A stretch of 53,359 bases of DNA from an uncultured Bdellovibrionales bacterium (lineage in GTDB: Bacteria; Patescibacteriota; Minisyncoccia; Moranbacterales; UBA1568), in assembly GCA_964597355.1 (NCBI GenBank), contig CAZQWS010000006.1, positions 1-53,359 on the forward strand, in the 5' to 3' direction. The translations under genes and the position numbers were made by a program. Below, one piece after another: positions 3,039 through 43,248 of the stretch. Position 1 is the first letter of the stretch. Every line of letters begins with the position of its first letter. The notes under the pieces were generated by a model. The model did not search any database. It was not told where the DNA came from and saw only the letters and a list, made by a program, of their open reading frames with translations.

Positions 3039-3091
3039 GCTTATCCAAGCGCCTTTTCCTAGTTGACTTTTTTATAAAAATATGCTAGTAT
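3039..3091 (+). promoter_or_regulatory. Cassette-1 left hairpin (GCTT-ATCC-AAGC) and sigma70 promoter
   Basis: TTGACT 3063-3068, 17-nt spacer, TG-C-TAGTAT 3083-3091 (extended -10). 30 of 31 nt identical to 42483-42513. Confidence 0.75.
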
Positions 3092-3164
3092 TTTAACTTG
3101 TACCTTCCAAGTTCGTCCCGCTAGCGGGACGAAGTTTTCCCTCTCAATAAGAAAGGTCTTTACC

Positions 3165-3764
3165 GTGGAAAAACTTCCGCTCCCGCTTGCACTGAACATC
3201 TTCGGGGCTGTTCTTGGCTCCCTTGCTGCCTGTCTCTACGCTCTGCGTGTCTGGCAGCAGAAGGAGCGAGCCAATCTCGCCACCTGGTCCATCATCCTTT
3301 TCCTCGACCTCGTGGGGCTTTACCTGACTTACGTCACCGGTAATCATGAGCCCTACATCCAGATGGGCTGGTGTATCGCGGCACTCTTCATTGTCATTGC
3401 GGCATGGGTGCGCAAGGGTGATTGGCTGTGGACGAGGACCGAAACTGTCGTGCTCGCCATCTGTGTTGCGTCGGTTTTCATCTGGCTCACAAGCGAGGCA
3501 GTGCTCATCTCGCTCCTCGGTTACCTGACGGCCGCTTATCTCTCGGTCTGGCCGCAAGCCAAGGACTACCTTCGGCATCCGGAGGTGGCACGAAAGAGCG
3601 CTTGGGTGTGGCAGGTGAGCATCATCGCCATCCTGTTCCCGCTCATGGCTAAGCTCGTTGAGCGCAAGTACGGCATCGAGCACACCCTCATCTACTACGC
3701 GTTGATCGGCCTCAACGTGATCATGGCCATGCTCTGCATGCGCCGCCCTCCGACAAGGGCATAA
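3165..3764 (+). CDS. GC-rich polytopic membrane protein (~6-7 TM), distantly PQ-loop/small-transporter-like
   Basis: GTG start after GAAAGG; alternating hydrophobic helices; two related motifs RANLATW and RKSAWVW. Spot count 38/60 GC in line 3541. Confidence 0.7.
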   Translation: MEKLPLPLALNIFGAVLGSLAACLYALRVWQQKERANLATWSIILFLDLVGLYLTYVTGNHEPYIQMGWCIAALFIVIAAWVRKGDWLWTRTETVVLAICVASVFIWLTSEAVLISLLGYLTAAYLSVWPQAKDYLRHPEVARKSAWVWQVSIIAILFPLMAKLVERKYGIEHTLIYYALIGLNVIMAMLCMRRPPTRA

Positions 3765-3765
3765 T

Positions 3766-3818
3766 CGCTGGCACGGCCAGCGTAACAGACGGCAGTCACC
3801 TGAAAAGGAGGCTGCCGT
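3766..3818 (+). terminator. Double-hairpin terminator of cassette 1
   Basis: CGCTGGC/GCCAGCG (3766-3782), then ACGGCAGTC/GGCTGCCGT (3789-3818) with inner CCT-GAAA-AGG, followed by TTAAACTTTT. Confidence 0.7.
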
Positions 3819-3850
3819 TTAAACTTTTATTCGATTATCTACCTTGCGAA

Positions 3851-3932
3851 TACTACTATACTCTATAGTATAGTAGTAAATGTATAAATTTTGATTTTGA
3901 AAAATTGATCCTATAGGCATAAATTTTCAAAA
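3851..3932. repeat. Two AT-rich inverted repeats between convergent genes
   Basis: TACTACTATACT-CTAT-AGTATAGTAGTA (3851-3878, 12-bp stem) and TTTTGAAAAATT...CCTATAGG...AAATTTTCAAAA (3895-3932). Confidence 0.7.
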
Positions 3933-3961
3933 TAGAATTCAATGAGAAAAGGGCGAGCCGA

Positions 3962-4651
3962 CTATTTCTGGCTCAAGACTTTGATTGGAAATACCACGAC
4001 AGCATTCCAGATGCGGTGGAAGCGGCTCGGCTGCTTCAACAAACGCCAGAGCCACTCGAGACCACATGAGCGCATCCATTTGGGCGCACGTGGGATAGCG
4101 CAGGTAAGAAAATCAAAAGCCCCACCGACCCCCATTACCAATCTGAAATTCGTATGGCGTGTTCGAAAGGTTTCGAGATAGAGCTCCTGAAGAGGAGCTC
4201 CGTAATTACAGAACAAAATGGCCGCTTGTGAACTTTGTGGTTCACGGAGTGAGAGCATTTCTATTTGAAGTTTCGGATAGCACTCGAGAAGCGCTGTTTT
4301 TATTGTTTCTGGACTACTCAAACCTTGTTCATAGAGCGCGAGGGCCACTCCATAGCCTTTAGCTTCAGCCAATTTCAAAATTTCATGGAGCAGATCAGCG
4401 CCTGGAAAACGATCAACTAGCTTCTCACCTACAAGCCAAAAAGGGAGGTTAATACCGACTCCGTCAGCAATCCGTAAATCGGCTTTTTTGAGCGCCTCAC
4501 GAAAATTGGGATGTGAATGGGCTAAGAGAAGAAACTCTGGATTGACGGTTGCGATACGGTGGAAACCACCCTGAAGAAGCCACTCGTCTATTGCTTGGAG
4601 GATGGCGCTTCGGGAGAGATTATCGATAGTGACGCCAAAAGTCTGTATCAT
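3962..4651 (-). CDS. WecB/TagA/CpsF family glycosyltransferase (GT26)
   Basis: IATVNPE, ADLRIADG, RFPGADL, MGVGGAFDF, RAPKWMRSCGLEWLWRL. Confidence 0.92.
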   Translation of the reverse strand: MIQTFGVTIDNLSRSAILQAIDEWLLQGGFHRIATVNPEFLLLAHSHPNFREALKKADLRIADGVGINLPFWLVGEKLVDRFPGADLLHEILKLAEAKGYGVALALYEQGLSSPETIKTALLECYPKLQIEMLSLREPQSSQAAILFCNYGAPLQELYLETFRTRHTNFRLVMGVGGAFDFLTCAIPRAPKWMRSCGLEWLWRLLKQPSRFHRIWNAVVVFPIKVLSQK

Positions 4652-4679
4652 GTATTGAGTATCTAGTATCCAGTATACT
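4645..4679. repeat. Heptamer tandem array (GTAT-N3) x5
   Basis: GTATCAT GTATTGA GTATCTA GTATCCA GTATACT, exact period 7, filling the thpR-tagA junction. Confidence 0.8.
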
Positions 4680-5227
4680 TACCCTTCAAGCGGAAATTCA
4701 GCGATCGGAACATAGGTCCGTTTGCCTTCAACACTGGTACTTTCAAATAATGTGATCGAAGAAACAGGTTCTACAAAGTTTACGTTTTTATCAAACTTTG
4801 GTTTCTCGCTCAGGGCTTCAAACTTGCCACGACGGATTTTTCCAAGCGTAATATGCGGACGAAAACTTTTTTTCTCAGGGACGAGATAACCAAGTTCACG
4901 ATCAAGGTTTTGTCGCAGTTTGAGAAGCATAGGATCATCCTCGCCATAGAGAAAAATAGCCGTAGGATGTGCGCTATCGGGAAAATAACCAATCCGATTG
5001 AAGCGAAGTTCGAAGGGAAGCACTCCTGTTACGGAGGCTTCGATTGCGGGCAGGATTTCATCGAGATTTTCCTCCGCCACAAACCCAAGGAAAAGCACCG
5101 TCACATGGAGGTTTTCCTTGCGAGTCGGGATAATCGGCCAATCTTTGAATGCCTCAATTTCTCGGCTCAAGCGCTTGGCCAAGGGAGAGGAGAGGCTGAT
5201 CCCGACAAAAAGACGTTTCGTTTGCAT
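4679..5227 (-). CDS. thpR: RNA 2',3'-cyclic phosphodiesterase (2H phosphoesterase, 2'-5' RNA ligase family)
   Basis: N-terminal RLFVGI and two HxT motifs (LHVTV, PHITL). Confidence 0.88.
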   Translation of the reverse strand: MQTKRLFVGISLSSPLAKRLSREIEAFKDWPIIPTRKENLHVTVLFLGFVAEENLDEILPAIEASVTGVLPFELRFNRIGYFPDSAHPTAIFLYGEDDPMLLKLRQNLDRELGYLVPEKKSFRPHITLGKIRRGKFEALSEKPKFDKNVNFVEPVSSITLFESTSVEGKRTYVPIAEFPLEG

Positions 5228-5315
5228 GGAGATACTTCAAAATTCTCCTTACTATAGCGAAAAAATGCCCTTTTGGCAATGCATTCTCCTTTGGTATTCT
5301 TGGTACAATAGCTCT

Positions 5316-7205
5316 ATGCCGCATCTCTATCGTATCGATATCGCCCCGTTGACACCGCTCCCTCTTACCAAGGCGCCATTTTTTAGTTACCGCTCGGACA
5401 GCGAAATTCCCTTGGGAAGCTTGGTCCAGGTCCCTTTTGGCCGTCGTTCTCTTCGGGGGATAGTCTACGCCTGTGCCCCCCTCCCCGGCCGAGCACCTCT
5501 TTGGCTTAAGCCTGTAGAACGAGTGATTCGAGCAGGATGGCTCACGCTCGAACAGCGTTCTTTGGCAGAAACTATCAGTGACACATACTTTTCTTCGCTT
5601 GGTAATACCCTGAAACACTTTGTTTTTCCTCTTTCCAACAAAGGACTCATTCCCGACCCATCATCCGCTAAAGTTTCTCAAAAAAAGTCACGCAGTCGCT
5701 CAAGCAAAGAAATGGGGCTTGAATTTGGTAATGACTTCGCCCTCTCCGAGTGGCTCAAAGAAACGCTTGAGAAAAACCTTGCCCATGAAGAAGCAACTCT
5801 TGTCTTAGTCCCCGATCTCTTTCTCCTCGCTACCCTTGAACAACGATTCCAAAAGATACTTGGGGAAAGGGTGATTGTCCTCTCCAGTAAGCTCACTCCG
5901 AAACAAATGGAGCTGGCCTGGCAAGCAATCCGCACAGGAAAGGCCAAGATCATCCTTGGCACCAGACAAGCAATTTTTGCTCCCTTTAGTAATTTGCGAC
6001 ATATCATCTTTCTCTATCCAGAGGAACGGCTTTCGTATAAACAATGGGACATGACTCCGTACTATGAAGCACTGTTTGGCGCGCGGACGCTCGCTCGTCT
6101 TTTCAAGACTTCTCTCACGCTCGTTACACCATCTCCTGGAGTTTTGAGTGAAGCTTTCCCGAAGAACTGGAAAAAAATATCAGCCCCTCAAACATCATCG
6201 CTTCTTCTCATTGACTGTCGTCTCGAGGGAAAAGGAGCTCGTTCTAAAATCTTGAGTAAAGAACTACAGAAACAACTAAAGGCTTTACCGTCTTCTGCCA
6301 AGGCTCTTTTTATGGCCAAAGAACGTGGGGTAAGTGGAGTAATGATTTGCCAACAATGCAAAACTACGGCTCGTTGTCCAAACTGTTCCCATCCTTTGGC
6401 CGAAAACAAAGAAGGAGTACTCCGATGCCTCCACTGTTTGTACGAAAGCAGCCTTTTCCCTAAATGCTCAAAATGTGGTCATATGCATTTCAAAGGATTT
6501 GGAGTCGGTACGGTCAAAGTAGAACGTGAGCTCGAACGGTATTTCCCAGAAAAACGATTTCTCTGTATCGATCGAGACAGTCTAAAAAAGACTGAGGAGT
6601 TCAAAGCGCTCGTCAAAAAATTCAGAGAACATCAGTATGATTGGGTCATTGCCACTCCAGAAATTGGGACACTTTTACAGTTGCCAAAACAGGATTTGAT
6701 TGTTATGCTGGAGGCCGACCATGCGCTTGCCTTCCCTGATTTTGAGGGTGAAGAATGGCTTGGAATAGAGGTGAAACGCCTCCAGGCGAAGCTCGGGAAC
6801 GAGGGTACGCTCGCTGTCCAAACCTTTACCCCAGAGGAACGAGTATGGCAATGGCTCTCTCAAAACCAAGAGGCAAAACTTTGGAAAGCACTTTTTGAGG
6901 AACGAGAAAGCTTTGGCTACCCCCCAGTCACTGCTATCATAAAAATAAGCCTTCCAGTAAAACCAAAAACAACTACCCCTCTCGATCTCGGCACTATTCA
7001 GAAACGGTTTGCCAAAATGTTTCAAGATAATGACCAAATAGAGATCTCTCCGATCTATACACCAAAAAAGAAATTGGGAGCGAGTACGCCGAGTTTTCTA
7101 ATAAAATATCCGGCCAGTAGCCCAATACCTGAAGATCTGAAGACTCTTCTCAAGCGAGAAAGCACTCATCTTAAAGTCGATATTCATCCCCTCCACCTTC
7201 ACTAG
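5316..7205 (+). CDS. priA: Primosomal protein N' (PriA) with degenerate helicase motifs
   Basis: 3'-binding domain (GSLVQVPFG), GTRQAIFAP, SYKQ, four CxxC zinc motifs (CQQC, CPNC, CLHC, CSKC), YPP. Start moved to ATG 5316, 6 nt after TG-G-TACAAT; the upstream part of the 4998 ORF overlaps thpR. Confidence 0.85.
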   Translation: MPHLYRIDIAPLTPLPLTKAPFFSYRSDSEIPLGSLVQVPFGRRSLRGIVYACAPLPGRAPLWLKPVERVIRAGWLTLEQRSLAETISDTYFSSLGNTLKHFVFPLSNKGLIPDPSSAKVSQKKSRSRSSKEMGLEFGNDFALSEWLKETLEKNLAHEEATLVLVPDLFLLATLEQRFQKILGERVIVLSSKLTPKQMELAWQAIRTGKAKIILGTRQAIFAPFSNLRHIIFLYPEERLSYKQWDMTPYYEALFGARTLARLFKTSLTLVTPSPGVLSEAFPKNWKKISAPQTSSLLLIDCRLEGKGARSKILSKELQKQLKALPSSAKALFMAKERGVSGVMICQQCKTTARCPNCSHPLAENKEGVLRCLHCLYESSLFPKCSKCGHMHFKGFGVGTVKVERELERYFPEKRFLCIDRDSLKKTEEFKALVKKFREHQYDWVIATPEIGTLLQLPKQDLIVMLEADHALAFPDFEGEEWLGIEVKRLQAKLGNEGTLAVQTFTPEERVWQWLSQNQEAKLWKALFEERESFGYPPVTAIIKISLPVKPKTTTPLDLGTIQKRFAKMFQDNDQIEISPIYTPKKKLGASTPSFLIKYPASSPIPEDLKTLLKRESTHLKVDIHPLHLH

Positions 7206-7222
7206 TCACTAAATTCTCCTCC

Positions 7223-7687
7223 ATGCCTGCTCATCCCGATATTGTTACCGGAGCCAAAAACGTAACGCTCCACACCAAGACGGTTCTTGTCAAAGATCCG
7301 TTGGATGAAAGTATCCAAAATCTCCTTCCAGAGATGCTTCGAATTATGCGCGAGGCGAACGGTATTGGACTGGCTGCCCCTCAGATTGGCCTGTCGCTTC
7401 GCCTCTGCGTCATCGAAATTGATGGCGTGATTCGCTACCTTATCAATCCCAAAATCACCTCCACTTCTCGGGAAAAAGTTTTCTTTGAGGAAGGCTGCCT
7501 CAGTCTCCCAGAAGAGTATTTTGAGATTGAACGCTTTGCCAAAGTAACCGTTCGCTATCAGAATGAAAAAGGCGAAGATATGAAACTCCGGGCCCATGGA
7601 CTGCTTGCATATTGCATCCAGCATGAGCTCGACCACCTCGATGGGAAGCTCATCTATGACCGCTATCACGAACAGCGGCGCAAGTAA
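7223..7687 (+). CDS. def: Peptide deformylase
   Basis: GIGLAAPQIG, EGCLS, QHELDHLDG. Confidence 0.97.
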   Translation: MPAHPDIVTGAKNVTLHTKTVLVKDPLDESIQNLLPEMLRIMREANGIGLAAPQIGLSLRLCVIEIDGVIRYLINPKITSTSREKVFFEEGCLSLPEEYFEIERFAKVTVRYQNEKGEDMKLRAHGLLAYCIQHELDHLDGKLIYDRYHEQRRK

Positions 7688-7721
7688 CTCAATCAACTGG
7701 CAAGAACCAAACACAAATACT

Positions 7722-8708: not shown

Positions 8709-8717
8709 TTCCTTCGT

Positions 8718-9557: not shown

Positions 9558-9588
9558 GAAAAAACAGCCTACTACGGGCTGTTTTTTC
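9558..9588. terminator. Bidirectional intrinsic terminator between the rhodanese gene and groES
   Basis: GAAAAAACAGCC...GGCTGTTTTTTC hairpin with A/T tracts on both sides. Confidence 0.85.
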
Positions 9589-9608
9589 TTTCTATCCAAA
9601 AAACTTGT

Positions 9609-9967: not shown

Positions 9968-9973
9968 CCCGTA

Positions 9974-31219: not shown

Positions 31220-31245
31220 TTTCTCAACAAACATCTCTTATAAAG

Positions 31246-31307
31246 AGGCTTATCCAAGCCTTTTTTAATATTATAGTATTGACTCAAATTAAGAAAAGTG
31301 CTATAGT
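31246..31307 (+). promoter_or_regulatory. Cassette-2 left hairpin/terminator and sigma70 promoter
   Basis: AGGCTT-ATCC-AAGCCT-TTTTT (31246-31266); TTGACT 31279-31284, N17, TG-C-TATAGT 31299-31307. Confidence 0.75.
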
Positions 31308-31383
31308 TTATCGTTGCAAAGTCTCGAACTGTGCAATGGCTGTATTCCCGGCCATTAGGGAAAGTTCTTTCAAGGAGAGCACA

Positions 31384-31773
31384 ATGAGTGCAGACACCAC
31401 CGTCGTCATCGCGGCCTACATCCGCCCATGGTATAGCGAGCTGGCGTACACGGCCGAGGTTGTCCAAGCCGTCGAGAACCTGTTCGATGATGAGTCCGCC
31501 CTGGAGACGGCCAAGACCATCTTCCTCATGCGTCCTCGCGTCTGGTTCACCGGCACTGGTGGTTTGAGCCGGGCGAAGCAATTCGCCAACCTGCTCGCCG
31601 AGGAAACTCGCGAGAACGGTATCCTTGAATACGAGAATCGGCTGATCATCGAGATCGCTGAGGATGGGGTGTATAGGCTCTCTCGTAGGGGTAAGCGTCT
31701 ACCGCTTGTTCAGGAGGTAGACCGAGAAGAGGCTCTGCCTTACGACGACTGTCAGTCCTATCACATACCTTAA
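31384..31773 (+). CDS. GC-rich hypothetical protein (129 aa)
   Basis: ATG 31384 follows AAGGAG; the 31279 TTG of the ORF track is the -35 box. Spot count 37/60 GC in line 31501. Confidence 0.7.
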   Translation: MSADTTVVIAAYIRPWYSELAYTAEVVQAVENLFDDESALETAKTIFLMRPRVWFTGTGGLSRAKQFANLLAEETRENGILEYENRLIIEIAEDGVYRLSRRGKRLPLVQEVDREEALPYDDCQSYHIP

Positions 31774-31785: not shown

Positions 31786-31833
31786 GGTGTAATCGCACCG
31801 CAAACGACCCCCCCCTACAAGAGGTCGTTTTTG
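31786..31833. terminator. Double-hairpin terminator of cassette 2
   Basis: GGTG...CACC (31786-31799), then AAACGACC/GGTCGTTT followed by a T-rich tract. Confidence 0.7.
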
Positions 31834-36042: not shown

Positions 36043-38292
36043 ATGCTCCAACCTCTTTCTCTTCTTTCTCTTCGTTTACTCCTTCTCTTCACCACCTATT
36101 GTTTTGTCGTCCAACCGTTTTGGCTCTTTTCTTTCCTCCAATGGTTCCCCAGTAATGAATTTTTCTATGCTATTTTTACTCTCCTCGGAGGCATAACGGT
36201 TTGGGTGACTTGGCGTCACCATCGCGAATTGAATGCCTCCTTCAAAAGTCTTCTCGTTTCCTTTTTCCCGGTGGCCCTCATCATTGGAGTCGGGCCTTTC
36301 TTTGCCCGGGAATTTCACTACCTCGTTCACCTTTCTGTCGGACTGTATACCATCAGTGTTTTGGTGTTCTGGGCCAGAAATTTCATCCGCCACGCCAAAA
36401 GTCAGGATGAAGACACAAGCGCACTCAAAGTTTTCTCCCCTTTCTCATGGAAGAAAAAGAGTAACCGCTTAGCCCTACTCTTTGTCACTATACTCACTCT
36501 CTCTTTCTTTGCTTTTGGATACCAAAATCTCACTCGTTTTGCCGCAGTTGACGAGCCGCTCTGGCTCGATGGTCGGATTGGCAATTTCTGGAAGCATCTC
36601 TCTCTCGAACACATGGACAAAACGCTTATCAGTGATAAGCCTGGGATCACCGTAGCCATCGCCAGCGGGCCCGGACTCTGGTTTGTCCACCCCAAAGACT
36701 ACCGTGATACCAGAAATGACTTTGAGACTAAGCACCCCGGCACCAACATAGAAGATCTCTACTTGGCCTTTCGCCTCCCTCTTCTCATCACCATTACCTT
36801 TCTTTTACCTCTGTTTTACCTTCTTCTCGCTCCTCTCGTAGGTACAAGTGCTGCTCTCTTTGGCTACACTGCCATCACCCTCTCGCCCGTCCTCATTGGA
36901 ATGAGTAAAATCGTCAATCCCGACTCGCTGCTTTGGGTCTTTGCCCCGCTTTCTTTCTTGGCCTATCTCGTTTTTCTGGAAAAAAAATCGTGGCGCTTCC
37001 TCATCCTTTCAGGAGTGTTCTTTGGACTCGCTCTCCTCACCAAGTACGTCGCTAATTTTCTTGTTGTCTATCTCTTTACTCTTTCTTTCCTCTATCCACT
37101 TTGGAAGCAAGGCGAGCATCTCACTTTGAGTTTTCTCTTCAAGGTGTTTCTTGTTTGGTTTGGTATTGGCATCGCCACCCTCTATCTCTTTGTACCTGCT
37201 TTCTGGGTAGCACCAAGTACTATTCTCGCGAGTACCATATTTAGCCAAGCCTTTGAAAAAGTCGCCTGGATTTTTATCACCCTCATGACCTTGGTATTCA
37301 TTGACCAGTTCCTGGTAAAAAGCCGGGTCAGTATTTTCTTCATTGACACCCTTAAGCCCTACGGTGGCATGTTCGGGAAAATTATCCTCGGATTTTTCGT
37401 TTTAGCTTTCGGCTTTGCTTTTTTGAATAGCCTCTTCGGTATGCCTTGGATTCATTTCAGCGAGATGCTTGCCTCTCCAAAAACTTCAGGACTCGATCAC
37501 ACCATTCGTCTTTTCTTTACTAATTTTTACCCCCTCGCTTTTGGAGTTGCTCCGCTTATCCTTCTCGGTATGAGTGCCGCACTCTGGCGAACATGGCAGA
37601 CTCATTTCCGCAGCTTCACCGCGCTCCATCGCCTCATCCTTGCTGTCATAGTATTTATTCCTCTGTATTATTTTGGTTCTACTGTTAACGGTGTAGTCCT
37701 CATCAACCGTTATCAAATCATGCTCTATCCTCTCCTTGCTCTTGTAGGAGGCATCGGACTTTTTATCCTTATTGAAGTTCTCTGGAAATATTTACGAAAA
37801 TCTCCACCCCCTACAGGTGCTTCTTTCGTTTTTCTTGCTGGCATTGGGTTTTTTCTTGCAATTTCTCCTCTTTTTACTCACTTTCCCCTCTCATACACAT
37901 CTTCCCTTCTCCCAAAGCCTTACTCAGTCGATGTTAAGGATATGGGTGCAGGAAGCTACGAAGCAGCCATGTATCTCAATAGTCTCCCTGATGCCAAAAA
38001 CACCACTATCTGGACGGATAAGAGTGGGGTATGTAAATTCTATGTTGGTCCATGTATCGATGGCTTTACGAAACGACATCTTCAAGAATATAAAGTGCGG
38101 TATATTGTTCTTTCTTCTGGCCGTCAGTCTCGCACTGAGAATCGATTCACTTCCGAAGATCACACCTTTAACCCCAATGACCTAGCCATTACTCGACTCA
38201 ATACTTACTATGGCCGCGAAGATGCCTTGCATACTATTAAAATCAATAATCGCCCTAGTCAATACGTAAAAATTTTCACACTCAATCAATAA
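36043..38292 (+). CDS. GT-C glycosyltransferase (ArnT/PMT-like) with extra N-terminal TMs
   Basis: AVDEPLW (DE motif), DKPGITVA, NPDS, LLTKY, RY, EAAMYLNSLP, CKFYVGPC. Start taken at ATG 36043. Confidence 0.85.
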   Translation: MLQPLSLLSLRLLLLFTTYCFVVQPFWLFSFLQWFPSNEFFYAIFTLLGGITVWVTWRHHRELNASFKSLLVSFFPVALIIGVGPFFAREFHYLVHLSVGLYTISVLVFWARNFIRHAKSQDEDTSALKVFSPFSWKKKSNRLALLFVTILTLSFFAFGYQNLTRFAAVDEPLWLDGRIGNFWKHLSLEHMDKTLISDKPGITVAIASGPGLWFVHPKDYRDTRNDFETKHPGTNIEDLYLAFRLPLLITITFLLPLFYLLLAPLVGTSAALFGYTAITLSPVLIGMSKIVNPDSLLWVFAPLSFLAYLVFLEKKSWRFLILSGVFFGLALLTKYVANFLVVYLFTLSFLYPLWKQGEHLTLSFLFKVFLVWFGIGIATLYLFVPAFWVAPSTILASTIFSQAFEKVAWIFITLMTLVFIDQFLVKSRVSIFFIDTLKPYGGMFGKIILGFFVLAFGFAFLNSLFGMPWIHFSEMLASPKTSGLDHTIRLFFTNFYPLAFGVAPLILLGMSAALWRTWQTHFRSFTALHRLILAVIVFIPLYYFGSTVNGVVLINRYQIMLYPLLALVGGIGLFILIEVLWKYLRKSPPPTGASFVFLAGIGFFLAISPLFTHFPLSYTSSLLPKPYSVDVKDMGAGSYEAAMYLNSLPDAKNTTIWTDKSGVCKFYVGPCIDGFTKRHLQEYKVRYIVLSSGRQSRTENRFTSEDHTFNPNDLAITRLNTYYGREDALHTIKINNRPSQYVKIFTLNQ

Positions 38293-38304
38293 CTCATTAT
38301 CTGT

Positions 38305-40209
38305 ATGTCGCGCTCTTTCGCTTTCAACCTTGCTTTTCTTACTGTTATTGTTTTCGCTAGTTTTGGCTTTTATCACCTTGGCAAATTTGAAACAACAGAT
38401 GAACACCTGTGGAAATACAAACGCATTGGTGACTATTGGGAAGGCTGGCGCGAGTGGAAGCTCGAGAAAACGTATATCAACGACAAACCCGGTATCACGG
38501 TGGCTCTTTTTTCCGGCTTTGGCCTCATCCCCGATGCTCATCCGGAACGAAGCGAACTCGTTCCCCTCTCCCCAGCAGAAGCTAAACTCTTTGAAGACTA
38601 TCGAGAAGATCAGACCGAACTCGTCAATGTACGTTTTCGTCTCCCGATCCTCATCGTGAGCGCCCTTGCGATCATCGCTTTCTTTTTTCTCATTCATCAC
38701 ATATTCCGCTCTTTCCCCATCGCACTCCTCACTACGCTCCTCATTGGCCTCAATCCGATCCTCGTTGGTATCGCCCAAGTGATCAATCCGGACAGCTTTT
38801 TTTGGCTTTTCGGATTTCTTTCAGTGCTCTGCTACCTTGGTTTTCTCTTCCACGATAAACCACGTTTTCTTTTGGCTACTGGTGTCATAACTGGTTTTGC
38901 CCTCCTCTCCAAATACACTGCCTTTCTCCTCTTTCCCCTCTTTGGACTTTTCCTTATAGGCTACTTTCTCTTTTTCACCGATGAACCACGAGCTATTCTT
39001 ACCCGTCAAACAGTAATGAAGCACACCATCGCTTTCCTCAAGATCTTCGGCCTAGCTGCTCTCACTTTCTTCATCCTTCTCCCTGCTACCTTCCTCGATC
39101 CGTCGCTCTTCTTCAAAGGAGCCTCTCAATTCCTTGACCCCAAAAATTGGCCTTACTGGATAGCGGGTCTTAGTCTTTTAGCTGCTTTTGTCTTTGCCGC
39201 CTGGAAATACGGCACCAATAGCCGCCTCCTCACCCTTCAAAACTGGGTCAAAAAACGCAGTCTCTTCATCACCCGAGGAGTAGTTCTCGTCTTGGGTACC
39301 ATCATCCTCCTTTCTCTCATCAATGTCTGGACTGGCCAAGCCCTCGCTCCCGTAGAAGCGCTTCGAGATGCAGCCTATGCCAATGAACCGCAAGCCTTTA
39401 ACTTTAAACCGGTCCTCGGGAAAACCGCACCACTGTATGAGAAGTGGTTCGAAGTTGGTCTCATGGAAATCTTCCCCTTCGTATTCTCGCTTACCCCCAT
39501 CCTCTTCCTCGGGCTCTTCCTCGGCCTTATCGGTTTGTGGACCAATATCTTTTCTCCCAGAGCCAAAGTAATTGTCTTCGCCGTATTTGCTTTTATCCTG
39601 CTTTATCTCTTCGCCACCTACCAAGCAAGAGTAGTCACCAATGCCCGCTACATGATCGCTCTCTTCCCCCTCATTGCCTTAGCTTCCGCTATCGCTCTTG
39701 ATGAATGGGTACGCCGTTTGGTGAAAGAAGAACTTCAGCAAAAAACCATCGTTAGGATCGCAGGTTTCCTCTTCCTCTTGGGGGGAGTTACTCTTTGGCA
39801 ACTGAAACCGTTTTATTTTAGCTACACTAACTTTCTCCTTCCCAAAGAACAATCCATCCATGACTCTTGGGGCCACGGGTTCTACGAAGCGGCCGAGTAT
39901 CTCAATAGTCTCCCCAATCCGGAAAAGCTCGTCATTTGGTCCAACAGTAATACCGTTTGCCGTTTCTTCGTCGGCCGTTGCCTTCAGTCACGTCAGATTG
40001 ACCTAGCTCAAGTGAAGCCTGACTATTTCGTTATGTCCAAACGCGGGGTCGTGAAAGTACGCAATCAGCCAGTGCTCAAGAACAATCCTTGGCCCAAGCG
40101 TGACACCGCCTATTACGTCGACAAAGTTCAAAATAATCCTGACTGGCAGCTCCTCATCAATGGCCGTCCCGACAACTTCGTGAACATTGTCCGGTTTGAG
40201 AAAGAATAG
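38305..40209 (+). CDS. GT-C glycosyltransferase (ArnT/PMT-like), paralog of the preceding gene
   Basis: TTDEHLW, DKPGITVA, NPDS, LLSKY, ARY, EAAEYLNSLP, CRFFVGRC. Confidence 0.85.
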   Translation: MSRSFAFNLAFLTVIVFASFGFYHLGKFETTDEHLWKYKRIGDYWEGWREWKLEKTYINDKPGITVALFSGFGLIPDAHPERSELVPLSPAEAKLFEDYREDQTELVNVRFRLPILIVSALAIIAFFFLIHHIFRSFPIALLTTLLIGLNPILVGIAQVINPDSFFWLFGFLSVLCYLGFLFHDKPRFLLATGVITGFALLSKYTAFLLFPLFGLFLIGYFLFFTDEPRAILTRQTVMKHTIAFLKIFGLAALTFFILLPATFLDPSLFFKGASQFLDPKNWPYWIAGLSLLAAFVFAAWKYGTNSRLLTLQNWVKKRSLFITRGVVLVLGTIILLSLINVWTGQALAPVEALRDAAYANEPQAFNFKPVLGKTAPLYEKWFEVGLMEIFPFVFSLTPILFLGLFLGLIGLWTNIFSPRAKVIVFAVFAFILLYLFATYQARVVTNARYMIALFPLIALASAIALDEWVRRLVKEELQQKTIVRIAGFLFLLGGVTLWQLKPFYFSYTNFLLPKEQSIHDSWGHGFYEAAEYLNSLPNPEKLVIWSNSNTVCRFFVGRCLQSRQIDLAQVKPDYFVMSKRGVVKVRNQPVLKNNPWPKRDTAYYVDKVQNNPDWQLLINGRPDNFVNIVRFEKE

Positions 40210-40215
40210 TAAGTG

Positions 40216-40370
40216 TATAATCCGGACTTGCACGATTGAACGGAAAAATTCACACCGAGCCAATCGCCGTGAAGTGAGCATGGATTATAAAGAATATCAG
40301 TCTACGCTCAAACACCCTTCTCTTACCACGCGTTTTGTGAATTTTGAGTACAAACGCGCAAGTCTGATAT
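40216..40370. other. Two long interrupted hairpins filling a convergent intergenic gap
   Basis: TATAATCC/GGATTATA (40216-40289) enclosing ACTT(G)CACG/CGTGAAGT, ATTG/CAAT and CGG/CCG; ATATCAG/CTGATAT (40294-40370) enclosing CGCGTTTTGT/ACAAACGCG. Confidence 0.55.
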
Positions 40371-41321
40371 CTAAAGAGTAGATCCTTCAACTTTTTTCCG
40401 TTCTTCCAAGTAGGCTGGCAATGCAAGGAAGGAGAGAAGCATCTGGAGAAAGCGCGAGAGAAGCGCTGCGGTGACAGCCATTTCGGCCGACACTCCTACC
40501 AAACCAAAGACAAAAATATATGACCATTCCTTGACGCCGATGTTATTGATTGAGATCGGAATATTGGCGAGCAAGGTAGCGAGGAAAATACAACCGAGAA
40601 AGGCGCCGAGAGAAAGTTCGAGGCCGATGCTTTGCCACAGCGCCCAATTGCTGAGGCTCACCCCAACAATAAGAAACAAAAAAGAGAAGCCAAGGGCTTT
40701 GAGGTAGAGCCTCGTTTCAGCCAAAGGTTCAAGCCGTTCCAATTGGGTACGGACTTTTTGCCATGGCAACCAACCGGCCACGGTAAGGATGAGTTCGAAA
40801 AATCCCGTAATCGAAATGAGCGAAAACAAAGCAAAAATTGCGGCAGCGAGCATGAGTATCCCTACTATAATAAGTATCGGCTGCTGCAAGAAATACTCCA
40901 CGGGGATGAAAAATAAGGAGAGGGTCGAGAGGAGAAAGAGTGAGAGGAGTCCACTCAAGCGATCAAAGAGAACTACCCCAAAGGCTTCAAAACGCTTACC
41001 CGGCTCACTCATCCACATGGTGCGATAAGTATCACCACCAATAGTCGAGGGAAGAAAATTATTGATAAAAGCCCCAGCGAGGTAGTGAAGGAATCCTTGG
41101 CGAAGCGAAAAAGTAAATCCTTGCGTACTAGCCAAGTACTGCCACTTCCATGCTGAAAGCCAAGTTCCGGTAAGTTGGAGCACGAGATAAATTCCAATAA
41201 AAGGAAGAGACACGTTTTCAAGCGTCTTCCCCACCCCTACCCAATCCACCTCCCTTACCAAGAGCCACACCAAAATAAGAGTCACTACTCCTTTTCCCAT
41301 TTTGATAAGGTTTTTACTCAT
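40371..41321 (-). CDS. Lysylphosphatidylglycerol-synthase-TM / UPF0104 flippase-like membrane protein
   Basis: AWKWQYL, NNFLPSTIGGD, LFDRLSG, PISINNIGVKE; ~8 TM. Confidence 0.88.
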   Translation of the reverse strand: MSKNLIKMGKGVVTLILVWLLVREVDWVGVGKTLENVSLPFIGIYLVLQLTGTWLSAWKWQYLASTQGFTFSLRQGFLHYLAGAFINNFLPSTIGGDTYRTMWMSEPGKRFEAFGVVLFDRLSGLLSLFLLSTLSLFFIPVEYFLQQPILIIVGILMLAAAIFALFSLISITGFFELILTVAGWLPWQKVRTQLERLEPLAETRLYLKALGFSFLFLIVGVSLSNWALWQSIGLELSLGAFLGCIFLATLLANIPISINNIGVKEWSYIFVFGLVGVSAEMAVTAALLSRFLQMLLSFLALPAYLEERKKVEGSTL

Positions 41322-41353
41322 ACCCAGAAGTTTTTTATTATTGATAGCTTACC

Positions 41354-41413
41354 ACTTTATGTCTCATCTAAGCCATTTTTACCATTGACTTTTCCATAAA
41401 AACATGCTATCAT
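41354..41413 (+). promoter_or_regulatory. Cassette-3 left element and sigma70 promoter
   Basis: ACTTTATGTCTCATCTAAGCCATTTTT (22/27 identical to 42441-42467); TTGACT 41385-41390, N17, TG-C-TATCAT 41405-41413. Confidence 0.75.
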
Positions 41414-41495
41414 TATAAGTTGCGTTACCAAAGCGCGACACAGTCCCCTTACCGTAAGGTAAGGTGTTGAAAATTCTTCTCTGAAGGAAAGCTAG

Positions 41496-42359
41496 ATGCC
41501 CACCATCGTCTCCCGTCTGTTCCAAGCCGGCGCCACTGCCCAGTCGTACGACATGAGCAAGTTCGCCGGCCCCGCCAAAGCATTCCGCAACATCCTCCGC
41601 TCTGACGACGTCGAACGTCTCATCATCGTGACCAACACCGAACCCGGCAACAAGCTGGCTGAGGTGGTGGACAACGAGGGAGTTGCTCCGACGACTCTCG
41701 CAGTGCGGAGCGAGTTCGCTGCCGAAGGTGACCGGGTCGTCGCCGTCCAGTACGACCAATGGGGCAAGAACCCCGGTTCGGCAATGGCAGTCACCTACGG
41801 CTGCCAGGAAGCCATCCGGCGGGGTGAGAAGAGCTACATCATGCCCTGGTCTTCCGAGCTGGCGGTTACGCCAACCCACATCGCCCGCGCACTGACTTTC
41901 GCCGAATCGCGTGCCCTCGATGTCGTGGGGTTCCACCGTGAAAACTGGTTCCACAAGCTCCAGTATCACGTGTTCCAGAACACCGGCGCCATCTACACGG
42001 TCGAGACGCTCGTCAAGAACGACTTCTTCTCGGCCGATTGCGACGGCAACACCGGTCGGACCCTGGAAGTGCCTGGCTTTGGCATCGTGCCGCTTGCTGG
42101 GATGGACGATTTCCACTTCCTCTTTCGTGCCCTGAAGAACCAGGGCAGCATCCGCTGGGGCATGGTGGGCCGCAGCGCACCTCTGCCGTGGAACGTCAAC
42201 TTCGAACCCGGCAGCCAGCGGGCGTTGCAACACCTCCAGAAGGTGGCTCGCCAGGAAGCAGTCATGTACCAGTACATGGCGGACATCCTGGGCGCAACTG
42301 ATCAGATCACCCAAGGTGAGGTCCTCAACCGCATTTTCGCGGCCATGCAGATGGACTAA
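41496..42359 (+). CDS. GC-rich protein, probably a highly divergent GT-A (GT2-like) glycosyltransferase
   Basis: RLIIVTN, GSAMAVTYGCQEA, YIMPWSSE and GMDDFHFLFRAL match the order of GT2 motifs; SD AAGGA; spot count 40/60 GC in line 41881. ORF is solid, function tentative. Confidence 0.55.
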   Translation: MPTIVSRLFQAGATAQSYDMSKFAGPAKAFRNILRSDDVERLIIVTNTEPGNKLAEVVDNEGVAPTTLAVRSEFAAEGDRVVAVQYDQWGKNPGSAMAVTYGCQEAIRRGEKSYIMPWSSELAVTPTHIARALTFAESRALDVVGFHRENWFHKLQYHVFQNTGAIYTVETLVKNDFFSADCDGNTGRTLEVPGFGIVPLAGMDDFHFLFRALKNQGSIRWGMVGRSAPLPWNVNFEPGSQRALQHLQKVARQEAVMYQYMADILGATDQITQGEVLNRIFAAMQMD

Positions 42360-42371
42360 GTCCACACCTTG

Positions 42372-42434
42372 ACCTTCGAAGGTAGGAACAAAAAGAGCCG
42401 GCACGTGAACCACGTTGCCGGCCTCTTCTTTTTT
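42372..42434 (+). terminator. Double-hairpin terminator of cassette 3
   Basis: ACCTTCGAAGGT palindrome, then AAGAGCCGGCA-CGTG-AAC-CACG-T-TGCCGG-C-CTCTT followed by CTTTTTT. Confidence 0.8.
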
Positions 42435-42440
42435 ATGTTA

Positions 42441-42513
42441 ACTTTATGGCTCCCTAAAGCCATTTTTTGATACTATCTCATCAGTTGACTTTTTTATATA
42501 AATATGCTAGTAT
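42441..42513 (+). promoter_or_regulatory. Cassette-4 left hairpin and sigma70 promoter
   Basis: ATGGCT-CCCTAA-AGCCAT-TTTTT; TTGACT 42485-42490, N17, TG-C-TAGTAT 42505-42513. Confidence 0.78.
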
Positions 42514-42630
42514 AGCATGTCACGCTGGAAAAGGCGTGCCAAGAGTCATCCTGCTCCCAAGCAGGGTTTACAACCAGTAAGCTTGTAGGGCATACTTAGA
42601 AGCCCTCAAGCCTACCCTCTGGAGATGTTC

Positions 42631-43113
42631 ATGTACAACCTGGCGATCCGCCTGACCGCAACGGAAGAGATCGAGATGTTCGAATGGCTGCGGGCGTATT
42701 TCAACCTCCCGGCCGACCTTCCGCTTGGCCTGTCGGAAAAAGGTGAGCCCCAACCCATTGGCAAGGCCGTGACCACCCTGGTCTGGGGAGCTTTCGGGAT
42801 GGTGCAAGTTCACCAAGAAGAAATGGGGTCGGATCTCACCCAGATCTACGAGACCGGCCTCCAAGAGCTCCTGGACGCCTTGGCCAAAGAAGCCGCAAAG
42901 AGCGAATCCCCAGCGGACCGCGCCTTTGCCGAAAGCGCGTTCGAGGCATACACTATGGAACGCGAAGCCATGCTTCGCATCGCTCAGGGACTACCGGACG
43001 TCATCCCGGAAATCAACCGGCGCTACTACGGCGCCCAGGATGCTTTCCACTTCTTCGAGAGTCTCGTGACAGGTCAGCAGCACGACCTCTTCCTGGTTCT
43101 GGCAAGAACCTGA
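42631..43113 (+). CDS. GC-rich hypothetical protein (160 aa, acidic, probably helical)
   Basis: GGAG at 42621-42624 is correctly spaced for ATG 42631; spot count 36/60 GC in line 42901; no recognised motif. Confidence 0.7.
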   Translation: MYNLAIRLTATEEIEMFEWLRAYFNLPADLPLGLSEKGEPQPIGKAVTTLVWGAFGMVQVHQEEMGSDLTQIYETGLQELLDALAKEAAKSESPADRAFAESAFEAYTMEREAMLRIAQGLPDVIPEINRRYYGAQDAFHFFESLVTGQQHDLFLVLART

Positions 43114-43195
43114 CAGCCAGGTTCTGGACGGCTGGAAGAGGACTGCAGCACGACCGAAAAAGCCGGATGAACGATAACTACGTTCCCCGGCTTTT
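43114..43195. terminator. Double-hairpin terminator of cassette 4 (possibly bidirectional)
   Basis: CAGCC/GGCTG (43114-43134), then AAAAGCCGG..GAACG/CGTTC.CCGGCTTTT (43158-43195). Confidence 0.78.
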
Positions 43196-43248
43196 GACTT
43201 TTTATGTCCAATTTTCCTTGTGAATCTGCGTGAAATAACGCTCGGAGG

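What the first reader, a model, noticed from the sequence alone, without database searches (positions are those of the whole stretch)
3039..43208. Four GC-rich single-gene cassettes share one expression architecture (3.0-3.8, 31.2-31.8, 41.4-42.4, 42.4-43.2 kb)
Seen in all four, always on the + strand: a small left hairpin containing AAGC followed by a T-rich tract, TTGACT-N17 with extended -10 TG-C-TANNNT, a hairpin-rich leader of roughly 70-120 nt, a real SD (GAAAGG, AAGGAG, AAGGA, GGAG), a GC-rich ORF (spot counts 36-40/60 versus 27/60 in a host line), then a small hairpin plus a terminator hairpin. The four proteins are unrelated and the cassettes interrupt host gene order. No integrase or transposase is in the window. 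Inference: a family of self-contained, independently expressed gene modules captured by an unknown mechanism, integron-cassette-like but each carrying its own promoter.
Basis: partly seen in the sequence, partly recalled or inferred. Interest (0 to 1): 0.78.

Follow-up and report, generated by a model that had tools for sequence, protein, structure and literature searches.

The report
Swappable GC-rich single-gene expression cassettes
An uncultured small-genome (probably CPR/Patescibacteria) bacterium carries four GC-rich single genes, each in the same self-contained promoter-leader-terminator frame; relatives have different genes, or none, in the same slots, so these are interchangeable accessory modules and not fixed host genes.

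Summary
Four + strand ORFs (3165-3764, 31384-31773, 41496-42359, 42631-43113) have GC 0.57-0.61 and GC3 0.69-0.80, against host 0.46 and 0.46 (z = 4-5.8). The motif TTGACT-N14-TGCTANNNT occurs only in front of these four. Each cassette has a structured leader, an SD and 3' hairpins.

Relatives show that the cassettes are exchangeable:
- The c2 slot holds four unrelated cargos.
- The c1 slot holds three states, one of them without an ORF.
- One relative has an empty c3/c4 slot.
- c3 itself is syntenic in six relatives.

The frame is modular. Unrelated ORFs share 93-99% identical leader or terminator modules, and the similarity ends 6-12 nt from the start and stop codons. The c1 family (54-83% aa identity) sits in six different genomic contexts. 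In one pair, similarity runs exactly from the -35 box to the terminator T-run.

The GC excess is not codon optimisation. It tracks host GC3 with a constant offset (r = 0.93, n = 6).

No integrase, attC, terminal inverted repeats or target duplication were found. The best reading is moron-like or minimal-mobile-element-like cassettes exchanged by homologous recombination. How a new ORF enters the frame is unknown. c3 has a GT-A glycosyltransferase fold, and c1 looks like a 7-TM PQ-loop/SWEET-type protein.

The parts
3039..3058 (+). c1 left element: GCTTATCCAAGC weak hairpin plus T-rich tract
   Evidence: The exact 12-mer occurs only here and at the c2 left end. It folds weakly, -2.5 kcal/mol. 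It is conserved in relative L032.
3063..3091 (+). c1 promoter: TTGACT, 17-nt spacer, extended -10 TGCTAGTAT
   Evidence: It is 97% identical over 31 nt to the c4 promoter.
3092..3164 (+). c1 leader: stem-loop 3112-3133 followed by a U-tract, and SD GAAAGG at 3151-3156
   Evidence: Folding z = -2.66. Also flagged as terminator-like.
3165..3764 (+). c1 ORF, 199 aa (GTG start): 7-TM membrane protein with a PQ-loop/SWEET/KDEL-receptor-like fold
   Evidence: GC3 0.75. 62 homologs at 54-83% identity in CPR MAGs. Model pLDDT 89.9; Foldseek TM about 0.6 but E-value only about 0.1.
3766..3820 (+). c1 3' end: small hairpin 3766-3782 and terminator hairpin 3787-3820 followed by a T-run
   Evidence: z = -7.45. 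The terminator is homologous to that of the ORF-less cassette in L032.
31242..31265 (+). c2 left hairpin GAGGCTTATCCAAGCCTT plus T-run; it also terminates the upstream flippase-like gene
   Evidence: -10.2 kcal/mol, z = -3.4. Conserved in L081, which has a different cargo.
31279..31307 (+). c2 promoter: TTGACT-N17, extended -10 TGCTATAGT
31308..31383 (+). c2 leader with two stem-loops and SD AAGGAG at 31372-31377
   Evidence: z = -1.1. The 3' 35 nt are 89% identical to the leader of the unrelated L101 cassette.
31384..31773 (+). c2 ORF, 129 aa, function unknown
   Evidence: GC3 0.69. 85% homolog at the same site in L070, while L069, L072 and L081 carry other cargos there.
31786..31830 (+). c2 3' small hairpin (31786-31799) and terminator (31802-31830)
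   Evidence: Both are conserved with L081, whose cargo differs.
41354..41381 (+). c3 left element, a degenerate copy of the c4 left hairpin
   Evidence: 27 nt, 81% identical to 42441-42467. It does not fold.
41385..41413 (+). c3 promoter: TTGACT-N17, extended -10 TGCTATCAT
41414..41495 (+). c3 leader (family A): 5' stem-loop 41419-41439, second stem-loop, then SD AAGGA
   Evidence: z = -3.81. Hairpin 1 is conserved, with G-C to A-U changes, across 8 cassettes.
41496..42359 (+). c3 ORF, 287 aa: GT-A-fold glycosyltransferase-like protein
   Evidence: GC3 0.80. 31 homologs. Model pLDDT 92.5; Foldseek hits RmlT, WrtF, TarS and TarP at E = 6e-8. Syntenic in L069-75 and L119.
42361..42433 (+). c3 3' small hairpin and GCCGGC...GCCGGC terminator with T-run
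   Evidence: z = -4.12. Homologous terminators occur in the c3 orthologs.
42441..42468 (+). c4 left hairpin ATGGCT-CCCTAA-AGCCAT plus T-run
   Evidence: -6.8 kcal/mol. Repeat of 41354-41380.
42485..42513 (+). c4 promoter: TTGACT-N17, extended -10 TGCTAGTAT
42514..42630 (+). c4 leader (family A, long form with three stem-loops) and SD GGAG at 42621-42624
   Evidence: z = -2.73. It aligns with the leaders of L119 X, L119 c3 and L065.
42631..43113 (+). c4 ORF, 160 aa, near-orphan
   Evidence: GC3 0.72. Only two remote homologs (42% and 27% identity) among 1.84 billion representatives. Absent from this slot in all relatives examined.
43114..43205 (+). c4 3' small hairpin and terminator GCCGGATGAACGATAACTACGTTCCCCGGC with T-run
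   Evidence: z = -2.49. The terminator is 95-96% identical to those of L119 X, L119 c3 and L074 c3.

Best explanation
The four loci are autonomous monocistronic accessory-gene cassettes in the chromosome of an uncultured, probably CPR/Patescibacteria, bacterium.

How a cassette works:
- A short upstream hairpin and T-tract act as an insulator or UP-like element.
- A near-consensus sigma-70 promoter with an extended -10 box follows.
- The transcript is predicted to start at a conserved GTY about 6 nt after the -10 box, so the mRNA would begin with a stem-loop. One or two further stem-loops and a strong SD follow.
- Then comes a GC-rich ORF.
- Two 3' hairpins end the unit; the second is an intrinsic terminator.
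The unit therefore expresses its gene independently of the surrounding operons and shields the convergent gene downstream. That is why it can sit in almost any intergenic site.

How it is built. The frame is modular and is shared between unrelated ORFs, within one genome and between genomes. Cargos are mostly envelope-related: a GT-A glycosyltransferase, a 7-TM transporter-like protein, and lipoproteins or small membrane proteins in relatives.

How it moves (inferred). Cassettes are gained, lost and replaced mainly by homologous recombination of imported DNA. This would use either the conserved host flanks, as in Neisseria minimal mobile elements, or the shared frame modules as portable homology. 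Occasional illegitimate joins, filtered by selection, would leave module borders at ORF edges, as in phage mosaicism and morons.

GC excess. It appears to be an intrinsic, maintained property of these genes and not only a leftover of recent import. I infer, without having tested it, that it belongs to the same high-expression, stable-mRNA design.

Shown: the anatomy, its specificity to these genes, variability between relatives, module sharing, and the promoter-to-terminator unit of similarity.
Inferred: the transcription start and mRNA stabilisation, recombination as the mechanism, and the cause of the GC excess.
For: Anatomy and specificity.

Variable slots:
- c2 site: four unrelated cargos (window and L070; L069 and L071; L072; L081). 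The left hairpin and the right hairpin plus terminator are conserved between the window and L081.
- L069 and L070 are 100% identical right next to a fully different cassette, and show a 100% / 80-90% mosaic elsewhere.
- c1 site: a 199-aa cargo in the window, an unrelated 84-aa cargo in L019, and an ORF-less promoter-leader-ATG-terminator in L032.
- c3/c4 slot: empty in L101, with a 29-bp gap, while L101 has a new cassette at a site that is empty in the window. L119 has another cassette, X, upstream of c3.

Module sharing between unrelated ORFs:
- L119 X and c3: 76-nt leader at 96% and 70-nt 3' UTR at 98.6%, ending 6 nt before the ATG and starting 12 nt after the stop codon. The ORFs are unrelated (hhalign probability 3%).
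- L060 a and b: 103 nt at 93%.
- Window c4 terminator against L119 and L074 terminators: 95-96%.
- Window c2 against the L101 leader end: 89%.
- L070 c2 against the L117 c1 terminator: 89%.

Unit of transfer. The L115 and L108 c1 cassettes lie in unrelated contexts, and their similarity runs from the -35 box to the terminator T-run only. The c1 family occupies six contexts, including inside a ribosomal-protein operon. Four-fold sites are unsaturated between the window and L108 or L115: 0.44-0.48 against a saturation value of 0.69.

GC excess:
- It is not codon optimisation. S6 and SSB in a relative, and groES in the window, have NNC 0.42-0.59 and NNG 0.25-0.35. The cassettes have 0.77-0.89 and 0.45-0.80.
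- c1 GC3 tracks host GC3 (r = 0.93, n = 6) with an offset of +0.19 to +0.28.
- c3 four-fold sites are saturated between the window and L074, yet GC4 is about 0.70 in both, against 0.53-0.60 in the flanks.

Background. Saccharibacteria are naturally competent (PMC10633639, PMC10187176). Most single-gene transfers into Patescibacteria come from other Patescibacteria (PMC12455944).
Against: - No recombination event was observed directly. All breakpoints are inferred from diverged relatives.
- Homologous recombination explains exchange, but not how unrelated ORFs first acquired the same frame with junctions so close to the start and stop codons.
- The left-end repeat between c3 and c4, and the 35-nt hairpin repeat flanking the c1 homolog in L109, could be recombination sites of an unseen enzyme.
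- Only 53 kb of this genome is available, so a recombinase elsewhere cannot be excluded.
- The promoter itself is close to a generic consensus. It also precedes ordinary genes in other taxa, so promoter similarity alone is weak evidence of common descent.
- The taxon's competence is assumed from other CPR lineages.
- The GC-offset correlation rests on six loci.
- The transcription start, promoter strength and mRNA stability are predictions only.
Confidence: 0.55

Rival explanations
1. Integron-like site-specific capture. An unidentified recombinase, encoded outside the window, inserts and excises cassettes at a hairpin site. That site would be the left AAGCC hairpin or the hairpin just after the stop codon. 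The result would be arrays of promoter-bearing cassettes.
For: - Tandem arrays occur with a repeated boundary element: the window c3/c4 left ends share 27 nt at 81%, and L119 has X followed by c3.
- Module borders lie within about 6-12 nt of ORF ends.
- A 35-nt direct repeat of a hairpin flanks the c1 homolog in L109.
- L032 has an ORF-less frame that could be a landing pad.
- The exact 12-mer GCTTATCCAAGC occurs at two different slots.
Against: - No integrase, transposase or reverse transcriptase in the window or in the fetched flanks of relatives.
- No conserved core site, terminal inverted repeats or target duplication at the cassette ends.
- The left hairpin lies outside the conserved unit in the L115/L108 pair. 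It is degenerate where no co-directional upstream gene needs a terminator.
- Breakpoints differ between sites: promoter included at the c2 site, excluded at the c1 site.
- c3 is stably syntenic.
Confidence: 0.13
2. Phage-delivered morons. The cassettes would be independent transcription units that evolved in phages of CPR bacteria, or in prophage remnants, and were left in the chromosome by transduction or prophage decay.
For: - The architecture (own promoter, own terminator, atypical composition, inserted between genes) is the definition of a moron (PMC3594210).
- The most distant c3 homolog (P0031, 30% identity) lies on roughly 42-kb marine contigs with Mu-type portal and Mu F genes, next to sugar-modifying genes.
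Against: - No phage genes in the window or around the cassettes in relatives.
- No PHROG hits for 8 cargo proteins.
- The c1, c2 and c3 families were not found in IMG/VR contigs.
- The phage homolog is neither GC-rich nor framed in this way.
Confidence: 0.1
3. Ordinary resident genes. These would be vertically inherited, very highly expressed lineage-specific genes. The strong promoter, 5' and 3' hairpins and GC3-rich codons would all reflect selection for expression, and the similarities would be convergence on consensus signals.
For: - c3 is syntenic across relatives that are saturated at synonymous sites, and it stays GC-rich.
- The promoter is close to the generic consensus and is found before normal genes in many taxa.
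- The constant GC3 offset across hosts suggests selection and not recent import.
Against: - Alternative cargos and empty sites occur at three of the slots.
- The c1 family occupies six contexts, with a promoter-to-terminator unit of similarity.
- 93-99% identical UTR modules around unrelated ORFs cannot be convergence.
- Cassette codon choice for Lys, Glu and Gln is opposite to that of ribosomal-protein genes.
Confidence: 0.05
4. A mobile promoter-leader element. The AT-rich left part (hairpin, promoter, leader) would itself be a small repeat that spreads in front of already resident foreign GC-rich genes and activates them. The ORFs would have arrived separately.
For: - The promoter plus leader is duplicated at 93% over 103 nt before unrelated ORFs within L060. 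It recurs in L065, L119 and window c4.
- The window c1 and c4 promoters are 97% identical over 31 nt.
Against: - The 3' UTR and terminator modules are shared just as strongly: 98.6% in L119, and 95-96% between window c4 and L119 or L074. The whole frame is therefore modular, not only the promoter side.
- No terminal inverted repeats or target duplication around the promoter-leader part.
- In the L115/L108 pair, promoter, ORF and terminator travel together.
Confidence: 0.07

Closest known systems
Phage morons (Hendrix/Juhala concept; reviewed in PMC3594210)
   Same: A single gene forms an independent transcription unit with its own promoter and terminator. Its composition differs from that of its neighbours. 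It is inserted between two genes without disturbing them, and it spreads horizontally.
   Different: Here the units lie among housekeeping and glycan-synthesis genes of a bacterial chromosome, not in a prophage. Different cassettes share one homologous frame of promoter, leader and terminator. The GC excess looks maintained and not merely foreign.
[quoted passage not shown] 2007; as described in PMC3787668)
   Same: A slot between specific conserved flanking genes holds different, unrelated genes in close relatives. There is no recombinase. Exchange by transformation and homologous recombination in the flanks is the obvious route, and recombination mosaics are seen around the slot.
   Different: Those elements are defined by their flanks only. 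Here the cargo units also carry a common, modular expression frame, are uniformly GC-rich, form tandem arrays, and (for c1) turn up at unrelated sites in distant genomes.
Integron gene cassettes, including chromosomal super-integron arrays with near-identical attC repeats
   Same: Arrays of unrelated single ORFs, many of them orphans, are separated by a repeated, hairpin-forming inter-ORF element. Module borders lie close to ORF ends.
   Different: Integron cassettes are promoterless, end in an attC site with conserved core sites, and need IntI and attI with a common Pc promoter. Here every unit has its own promoter and terminator. No attC-like site or integrase was found, and the slots are scattered.
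Mosaic gene-module exchange in lambdoid phages (illegitimate recombination followed by selection; my own knowledge of Hendrix and colleagues' model)
   Same: Sharp transitions between near-identical and unrelated sequence fall at gene borders. Regulatory and coding modules are reassorted.
   Different: Here this is seen in cellular chromosomes and at the scale of single-gene expression units.

Membership tests
Integron gene cassette | Cassette is promoterless and is expressed from a common Pc promoter | tested here: not met
   Each of the four units has its own near-consensus promoter with an extended -10 box.
Integron gene cassette | attC site (imperfect inverted repeat with conserved core sites) at the 3' end of every ORF | tested here: inconclusive
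   Hairpins follow every stop codon. They are ordinary stem-loops followed by T-runs, and no motif common to all four was found. No attC covariance model was run.
Integron gene cassette | Adjacent intI integrase and attI site | tested here: not met
   No integrase among the Pfam-annotated ORFs of the window or in the flanks of relatives. The rest of the genome could not be examined.
Phage moron | Independent transcription unit with its own promoter and terminator | tested here: met
   Sequence-level promoter and terminator in all four units. Not verified by RNA data.
Phage moron | Nucleotide composition differs from that of the neighbours | tested here: met
   GC and GC3 z-scores of 4-5.8.
Phage moron | Located within a phage or prophage genome | tested here: not met
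   The neighbours are gltX, wecG, flippase, PMT_2 and glycosyltransferase genes. There are no phage genes and no PHROG hits.
Minimal mobile element (Neisseria type) | Different gene content between the same conserved flanking genes in close relatives | tested here: met
   c2 slot: 4 cargos. c1 slot: 3 states. c3/c4 slot: empty, c3 alone, c3+c4, or X+c3.
Minimal mobile element (Neisseria type) | No dedicated mobility genes or terminal repeats; exchange by flank homology | tested here: inconclusive
   No mobility genes or terminal inverted repeats, and a recombination mosaic is present. However, the cassettes share frame repeats, and c1 occurs at unrelated sites.
Minimal mobile element (Neisseria type) | Host is naturally transformable | not testable with these tools
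   Competence has been shown for Saccharibacteria (PMC10633639). It is unknown for this lineage.
IS200/IS605-type or MITE-like non-autonomous transposon | Conserved terminal hairpins or inverted repeats at both ends, a target duplication or fixed target, and a cognate transposase | tested here: not met
   No inverted repeats bound any cassette. The left and right hairpins are unrelated to each other. There is no transposase in the window.
GT-A glycosyltransferases (c3 cargo only) | GT-A Rossmann-like fold | tested here: met
   AlphaFold model pLDDT 92.5. Foldseek hits to RmlT, WrtF, TarS and TarP at E = 6e-8 to 1e-5, TM about 0.5. There is no Pfam hit, and the catalytic motif was not examined.
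PQ-loop/SWEET/KDEL-receptor 7-TM superfamily (c1 cargo only) | 3+1+3 seven-helix bundle | tested here: inconclusive
   The model has seven or more helices at pLDDT 89.9. The top Foldseek hits are KDELR, SWEET13 and cystinosin with TM 0.56-0.61, but E-values of only 0.1-0.6.

The most novel reading that the evidence does not exclude
CPR/Patescibacteria might share a pool of plug-and-play expression cassettes: a standard promoter-leader / 3' hairpin-terminator frame into which unrelated ORFs are placed with near codon-precise junctions. An as yet unknown mechanism acting at the hairpins would capture and reshuffle them. This would be an integron-like system whose cassettes bring their own promoter. 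The GC-rich coding sequence would be an actively maintained part of the design, for example for mRNA survival, and not a trace of origin.
Probability: 0.2. Interest if true: 0.85.

Novelty: new variant of a known kind. Interest (0 to 1): 0.64.

Why it matters
CPR/Patescibacteria have tiny genomes and depend on host cells, and how they gain new surface and transport functions is poorly understood.

These cassettes show one concrete route. Fully insulated single-gene units can be dropped into almost any intergenic site, even inside a ribosomal-protein operon. They are swapped between strains, and they carry mostly envelope-related cargo such as a glycosyltransferase, a transporter-like protein and lipoproteins.

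The shared frame is also of practical use. It is a natural, compact promoter, 5' UTR and terminator set for expressing genes in bacteria that are only now becoming genetically tractable.

Two open points would interest specialists in mobile elements and genome evolution. One is how unrelated ORFs end up in the same frame with junctions at the start and stop codons. The other is why the coding parts stay about 0.25 higher in GC3 than every host.

Tried and rejected
- Synthetic construct or assembly chimera: rejected. The same cassettes occur in independent ENA, JGI, Logan and NCBI assemblies with natural divergence.
- Known RNA families in the leaders or elsewhere: none at gathering thresholds over the whole window and nothing credible at E <= 5 over the cassettes. 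No tRNAs in the window.
- Codon optimisation as the cause of GC richness: rejected.
- Recent import from Actinobacteria or another GC-rich donor: no such homologs. The c3 and c1 families are confined to CPR-like contigs plus one phage group, and c4 is a near-orphan. The constant GC offset across hosts argues against plain amelioration, though amelioration of c3 cannot be fully excluded.
- DGR-type adenine mutagenesis: no A depletion on the coding strand. The bAvd-like gene at 46671-47030 has no reverse transcriptase nearby.
- Defence or phage families: no PADLOC or PHROG hits. No Pfam or NCBIfam hits for the four proteins. No sequence hits in the PDB.
- Terminal inverted repeats or target duplications: none.
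- Promoter similarity as proof of common descent: weakened. A 23-base pattern search in 185,579 genomes returned many generic strong promoters before ordinary genes in other taxa.
- My first guess that the host is a Saccharibacterium: not established. Syntenic relatives are labelled 'uncultured Bdellovibrionales' (TPA MAGs), and a 90%-identity RtcB cluster contains a 'Ca. Moraniibacteriota' protein. The inter-phylum claim for c1 is therefore limited to 'several CPR lineages'.
- Phage and plasmid collections: no match for host DNA in the phage collection.

Full report
**What the window is.** The 53,359-base window is a whole contig. It has 46.8% GC and encodes housekeeping genes and a large cell-envelope glycan cluster. 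Housekeeping genes include GluRS, PriA, Fmt, Def, GroES, RtcB and Tmk. The glycan cluster includes many GT2, GT4 and PMT_2 enzymes, Wzy, a flippase-like protein, LCP and UDP-glucose dehydrogenases. There are no tRNAs, no Rfam families, and no integrase, transposase or reverse transcriptase. Close relatives are uncultured MAGs with inconsistent labels, and a 90%-identity RtcB cluster contains a 'Ca. Moraniibacteriota' protein. I treat the host as a probable CPR/Patescibacteria bacterium without naming a phylum.

**Checking the observation.** The four ORFs are 3165-3764, 31384-31773, 41496-42359 and 42631-43113.
- Their GC is 0.57-0.61 and their GC3 is 0.69-0.80. The 43 host ORFs have 0.462 +/- 0.028 and 0.464 +/- 0.057, so z = 4-5.8.
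- TTGACT-N14-TGCTANNNT with up to 1 mismatch occurs four times in the window, only in front of these ORFs. The chance expectation is 0.22.
- The leaders are 73-117 nt long, and three of the four fold better than shuffles.
- Each stop codon is followed by a small hairpin and then a terminator hairpin with a T-run.
- The left hairpin folds well in c2 and c4, weakly in c1, and not at all in c3. Its sequence is still cassette-specific: GCTTATCCAAGC occurs exactly only at c1 and c2, AAGCCNTTTTT only at c2, c3 and c4, and the c3 and c4 left ends are 81% identical over 27 nt.
- The four proteins are unrelated and have no Pfam, NCBIfam, PHROG or PADLOC hits.

**Are the cassettes variable?** Three slots were compared with relatives.
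- c2 slot (flippase-like gene | cassette | beta-helix gene). The window and L070 carry c2. L069/L071, L072 and L081 each carry a different small GC-rich ORF behind the same kind of promoter. Between the window and L081, the left hairpin and the right small hairpin plus terminator are conserved. The promoter, leader and ORF differ. L069 and L070 are 100% identical for about 2 kb next to the slot. Elsewhere they show blocks of 80-92% identity, which is a recombination mosaic.
- c1 slot (gltX | cassette | wecG). L019 has an unrelated 84-aa membrane ORF with GC3 0.87. L032 has only promoter, leader, SD and ATG, followed 17 codons later by the terminator that is homologous to the window's.
- c3/c4 slot. 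L069-75 have c3 alone. L119 has another cassette, X, followed by c3. L101 has nothing, with the LPG-synthase and GT4 genes 29 bp apart. L101 also has a new GC-rich cassette at a site where the window has 160 bp of spacer.
- c4, and the AT-rich EamA gene next to it, are unique to the window.
Empty sites and alternative cargos therefore exist. c3, however, is syntenic, and its divergence parallels that of its flanks.

**The frame is modular and shared by unrelated ORFs.** All figures below are unless stated.
- In L119, the X and c3 cassettes share 76 nt of leader at 96%, ending 6 nt before the ATG. They also share 70 nt of 3' UTR at 98.6%, starting 12 nt after the stop codon. The proteins are unrelated. 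X is the ortholog of the L065 cargo at 60% identity.
- In L060, two tandem cassettes share 103 nt of promoter plus leader at 93% before unrelated ORFs.
- The window c4 terminator is 95-96% identical to the terminators of L119 X, L119 c3 and L074 c3.
- The window c2 leader end is 89% identical to that of the unrelated L101 cassette.
- The L070 c2 terminator is 89% identical to the L117 c1 terminator.
- The window c1 and c4 promoters are 97% identical over 31 nt.
- In leader family A, the first stem-loop is conserved with compensatory changes. The second is present everywhere with a different sequence.
- In 15 of the 16 cassettes compared a GTY lies about 6 nt after the -10 box, where the first stem-loop begins; window c1 has CTT there.
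- An nhmmer model of the left end plus promoter gave full-length hits only before GC-rich ORFs in 1.2 Mb of fetched DNA. The only such hit outside the training set was L053. There were none before ordinary host genes. This test is partly circular, but the lack of other hits is informative.

**The c1 family shows the unit that moves.** There are 62 homologs at 54-83% identity in CPR MAGs. The six loci examined are in unrelated contexts:
- gltX|wecG
- HTH|NUDIX
- rplE|rpsH, inside a ribosomal-protein operon
- tRNA-Ala|FecR
- MerR|unknown
- uvrC|uvrA
Each copy is monocistronic with its own promoter and terminator, and each is GC-richer than its host. Between L115 and L108, similarity starts at the -35 box and stops at the terminator T-run, and the flanks are unrelated. 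Four-fold sites between the window and L108 or L115 are unsaturated, at 0.44-0.48 against 0.69. This fits transfer more recent than the divergence of the hosts.

**Why GC-rich?**
- It is not translational optimisation. S6 and SSB in a 46%-GC relative, and groES in the window, have NNC 0.42-0.59 and NNG 0.25-0.35. The cassettes have 0.77-0.89 and 0.45-0.80.
- It is not obviously recent import. No homologs were found in GC-rich taxa.
- c3 four-fold sites are saturated between the window and L074, yet GC4 is about 0.70 in both, against 0.53-0.60 in the flanks.
- c1 GC3 tracks host GC3 (r = 0.93, n = 6) with a constant offset of +0.19 to +0.28.
I infer a gene-intrinsic force that favours GC. Its nature is unknown. 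A role in mRNA stability or expression is my guess.

**Cargo function.**
- The c3 model (pLDDT 92.5) has a GT-A glycosyltransferase fold. It matches RmlT, WrtF, TarS and TarP at E down to 6e-8, which fits its place in a glycan cluster.
- Its most distant relative sits on Mu-like phage contigs next to sugar genes.
- The c1 model (pLDDT 89.9) is a 7-TM bundle. It resembles KDEL receptor, SWEET and cystinosin with TM about 0.6 but weak E-values.
- c4 has two remote homologs only.
- Cargos in relatives are mostly small membrane proteins, lipoproteins and an amidase-like protein.

**Mechanism.** There are no terminal inverted repeats, no target duplications and no common core site. No mobility genes were seen in any fetched locus.
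- The simplest account is exchange by homologous recombination of imported DNA. It would use host flanks, as in Neisseria minimal mobile elements (PMC3787668), or the shared frame modules.
- Rare illegitimate joins, filtered by selection, would leave borders at ORF ends.
- Competence is documented in Saccharibacteria (PMC10633639), and transfer within Patescibacteria is common (PMC12455944).
- A site-specific system acting at the hairpins is not excluded. Supporting hints are the tandem arrays with a repeated left element, the 35-nt hairpin repeat around the L109 insert, and the ORF-less frame in L032. I give this about 0.13-0.2.

**Verdict.** The feature is real and specific. It is best filed as a new variant of moron-like or minimal-mobile-element-like accessory cassettes. 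Two aspects remain unexplained: ORF-precise sharing of the frame, and the maintained GC excess.

Noticed in passing
L109:5925-6821 (also L110, L111): A c1 homolog plus a histidine-kinase gene are inserted inside a ribosomal-protein operon between rplE and rpsH. The c1 cassette is flanked by a 35-nt direct repeat of a terminator hairpin (5925-5959 and 6786-6821).
   Followed up: partly
L112:5559-6810: This c1 homolog lies next to tRNA-Ala (5684-5757). It is bracketed by repeats that resemble tRNA 3'-end fragments, which may be remnants of an integration site.
   Followed up: partly
L032:3629-3790: An ORF-less cassette: promoter, leader, SD and ATG run after 17 codons into the terminator that is homologous to the window's c1 terminator. 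It is either a deletion remnant or an empty landing pad.
   Followed up: partly
window:43249-44115 (-): An EamA-family transporter gene with the lowest GC in the region (0.42). It is absent from this slot in all relatives examined, so the same hotspot also takes up AT-rich cargo that lacks the frame.
   Followed up: partly
window:46671-47030 (-): A bAvd-like / 23S-rRNA-IVS four-helix-bundle gene lies between the UDP-glucose dehydrogenase and GT2 genes. It is present in L069, L070 and L119 and absent in L072, L074 and L101. No reverse transcriptase is nearby.
   Followed up: partly
window:3851-3878: A perfect AT-rich palindrome, TACTACTATACT-ctat-AGTATAGTAGTA, lies between the c1 terminator and the end of wecG.
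   Followed up: no
window:1-53359: All four cassettes lie on the + strand, whose GC skew is negative along the whole contig. If the skew reflects replication, the cassettes would be transcribed head-on to the fork.
   Followed up: no
L001 (= window 37670-42433): An independent ENA contig that is 100% identical to the window ends exactly at the c3/c4 junction. An assembly break at that point would be expected if strains in the sample differ there.
   Followed up: no
L070:12207-12698 and L119:15725-16525: Other strain-specific insertions occur in the same glycan cluster but lack the GC-rich frame: an AT-rich NYN-domain gene in L070 and an AbiEii-family gene in L119.
   Followed up: no
window:9609-9890 (-): groES stands alone, with no groEL next to it.
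   Followed up: no
L006, L021, L022, L035, L052, L054, L059, L063 (MAG ELA743, JBAXXQ01): One 36%-GC MAG carries at least nine copies of almost the same promoter (tacTTGACTTTTATATATAAATATGCTATTAT) before ordinary AT-rich genes. The promoter consensus is therefore widespread beyond the GC-rich cassettes.
   Followed up: partly
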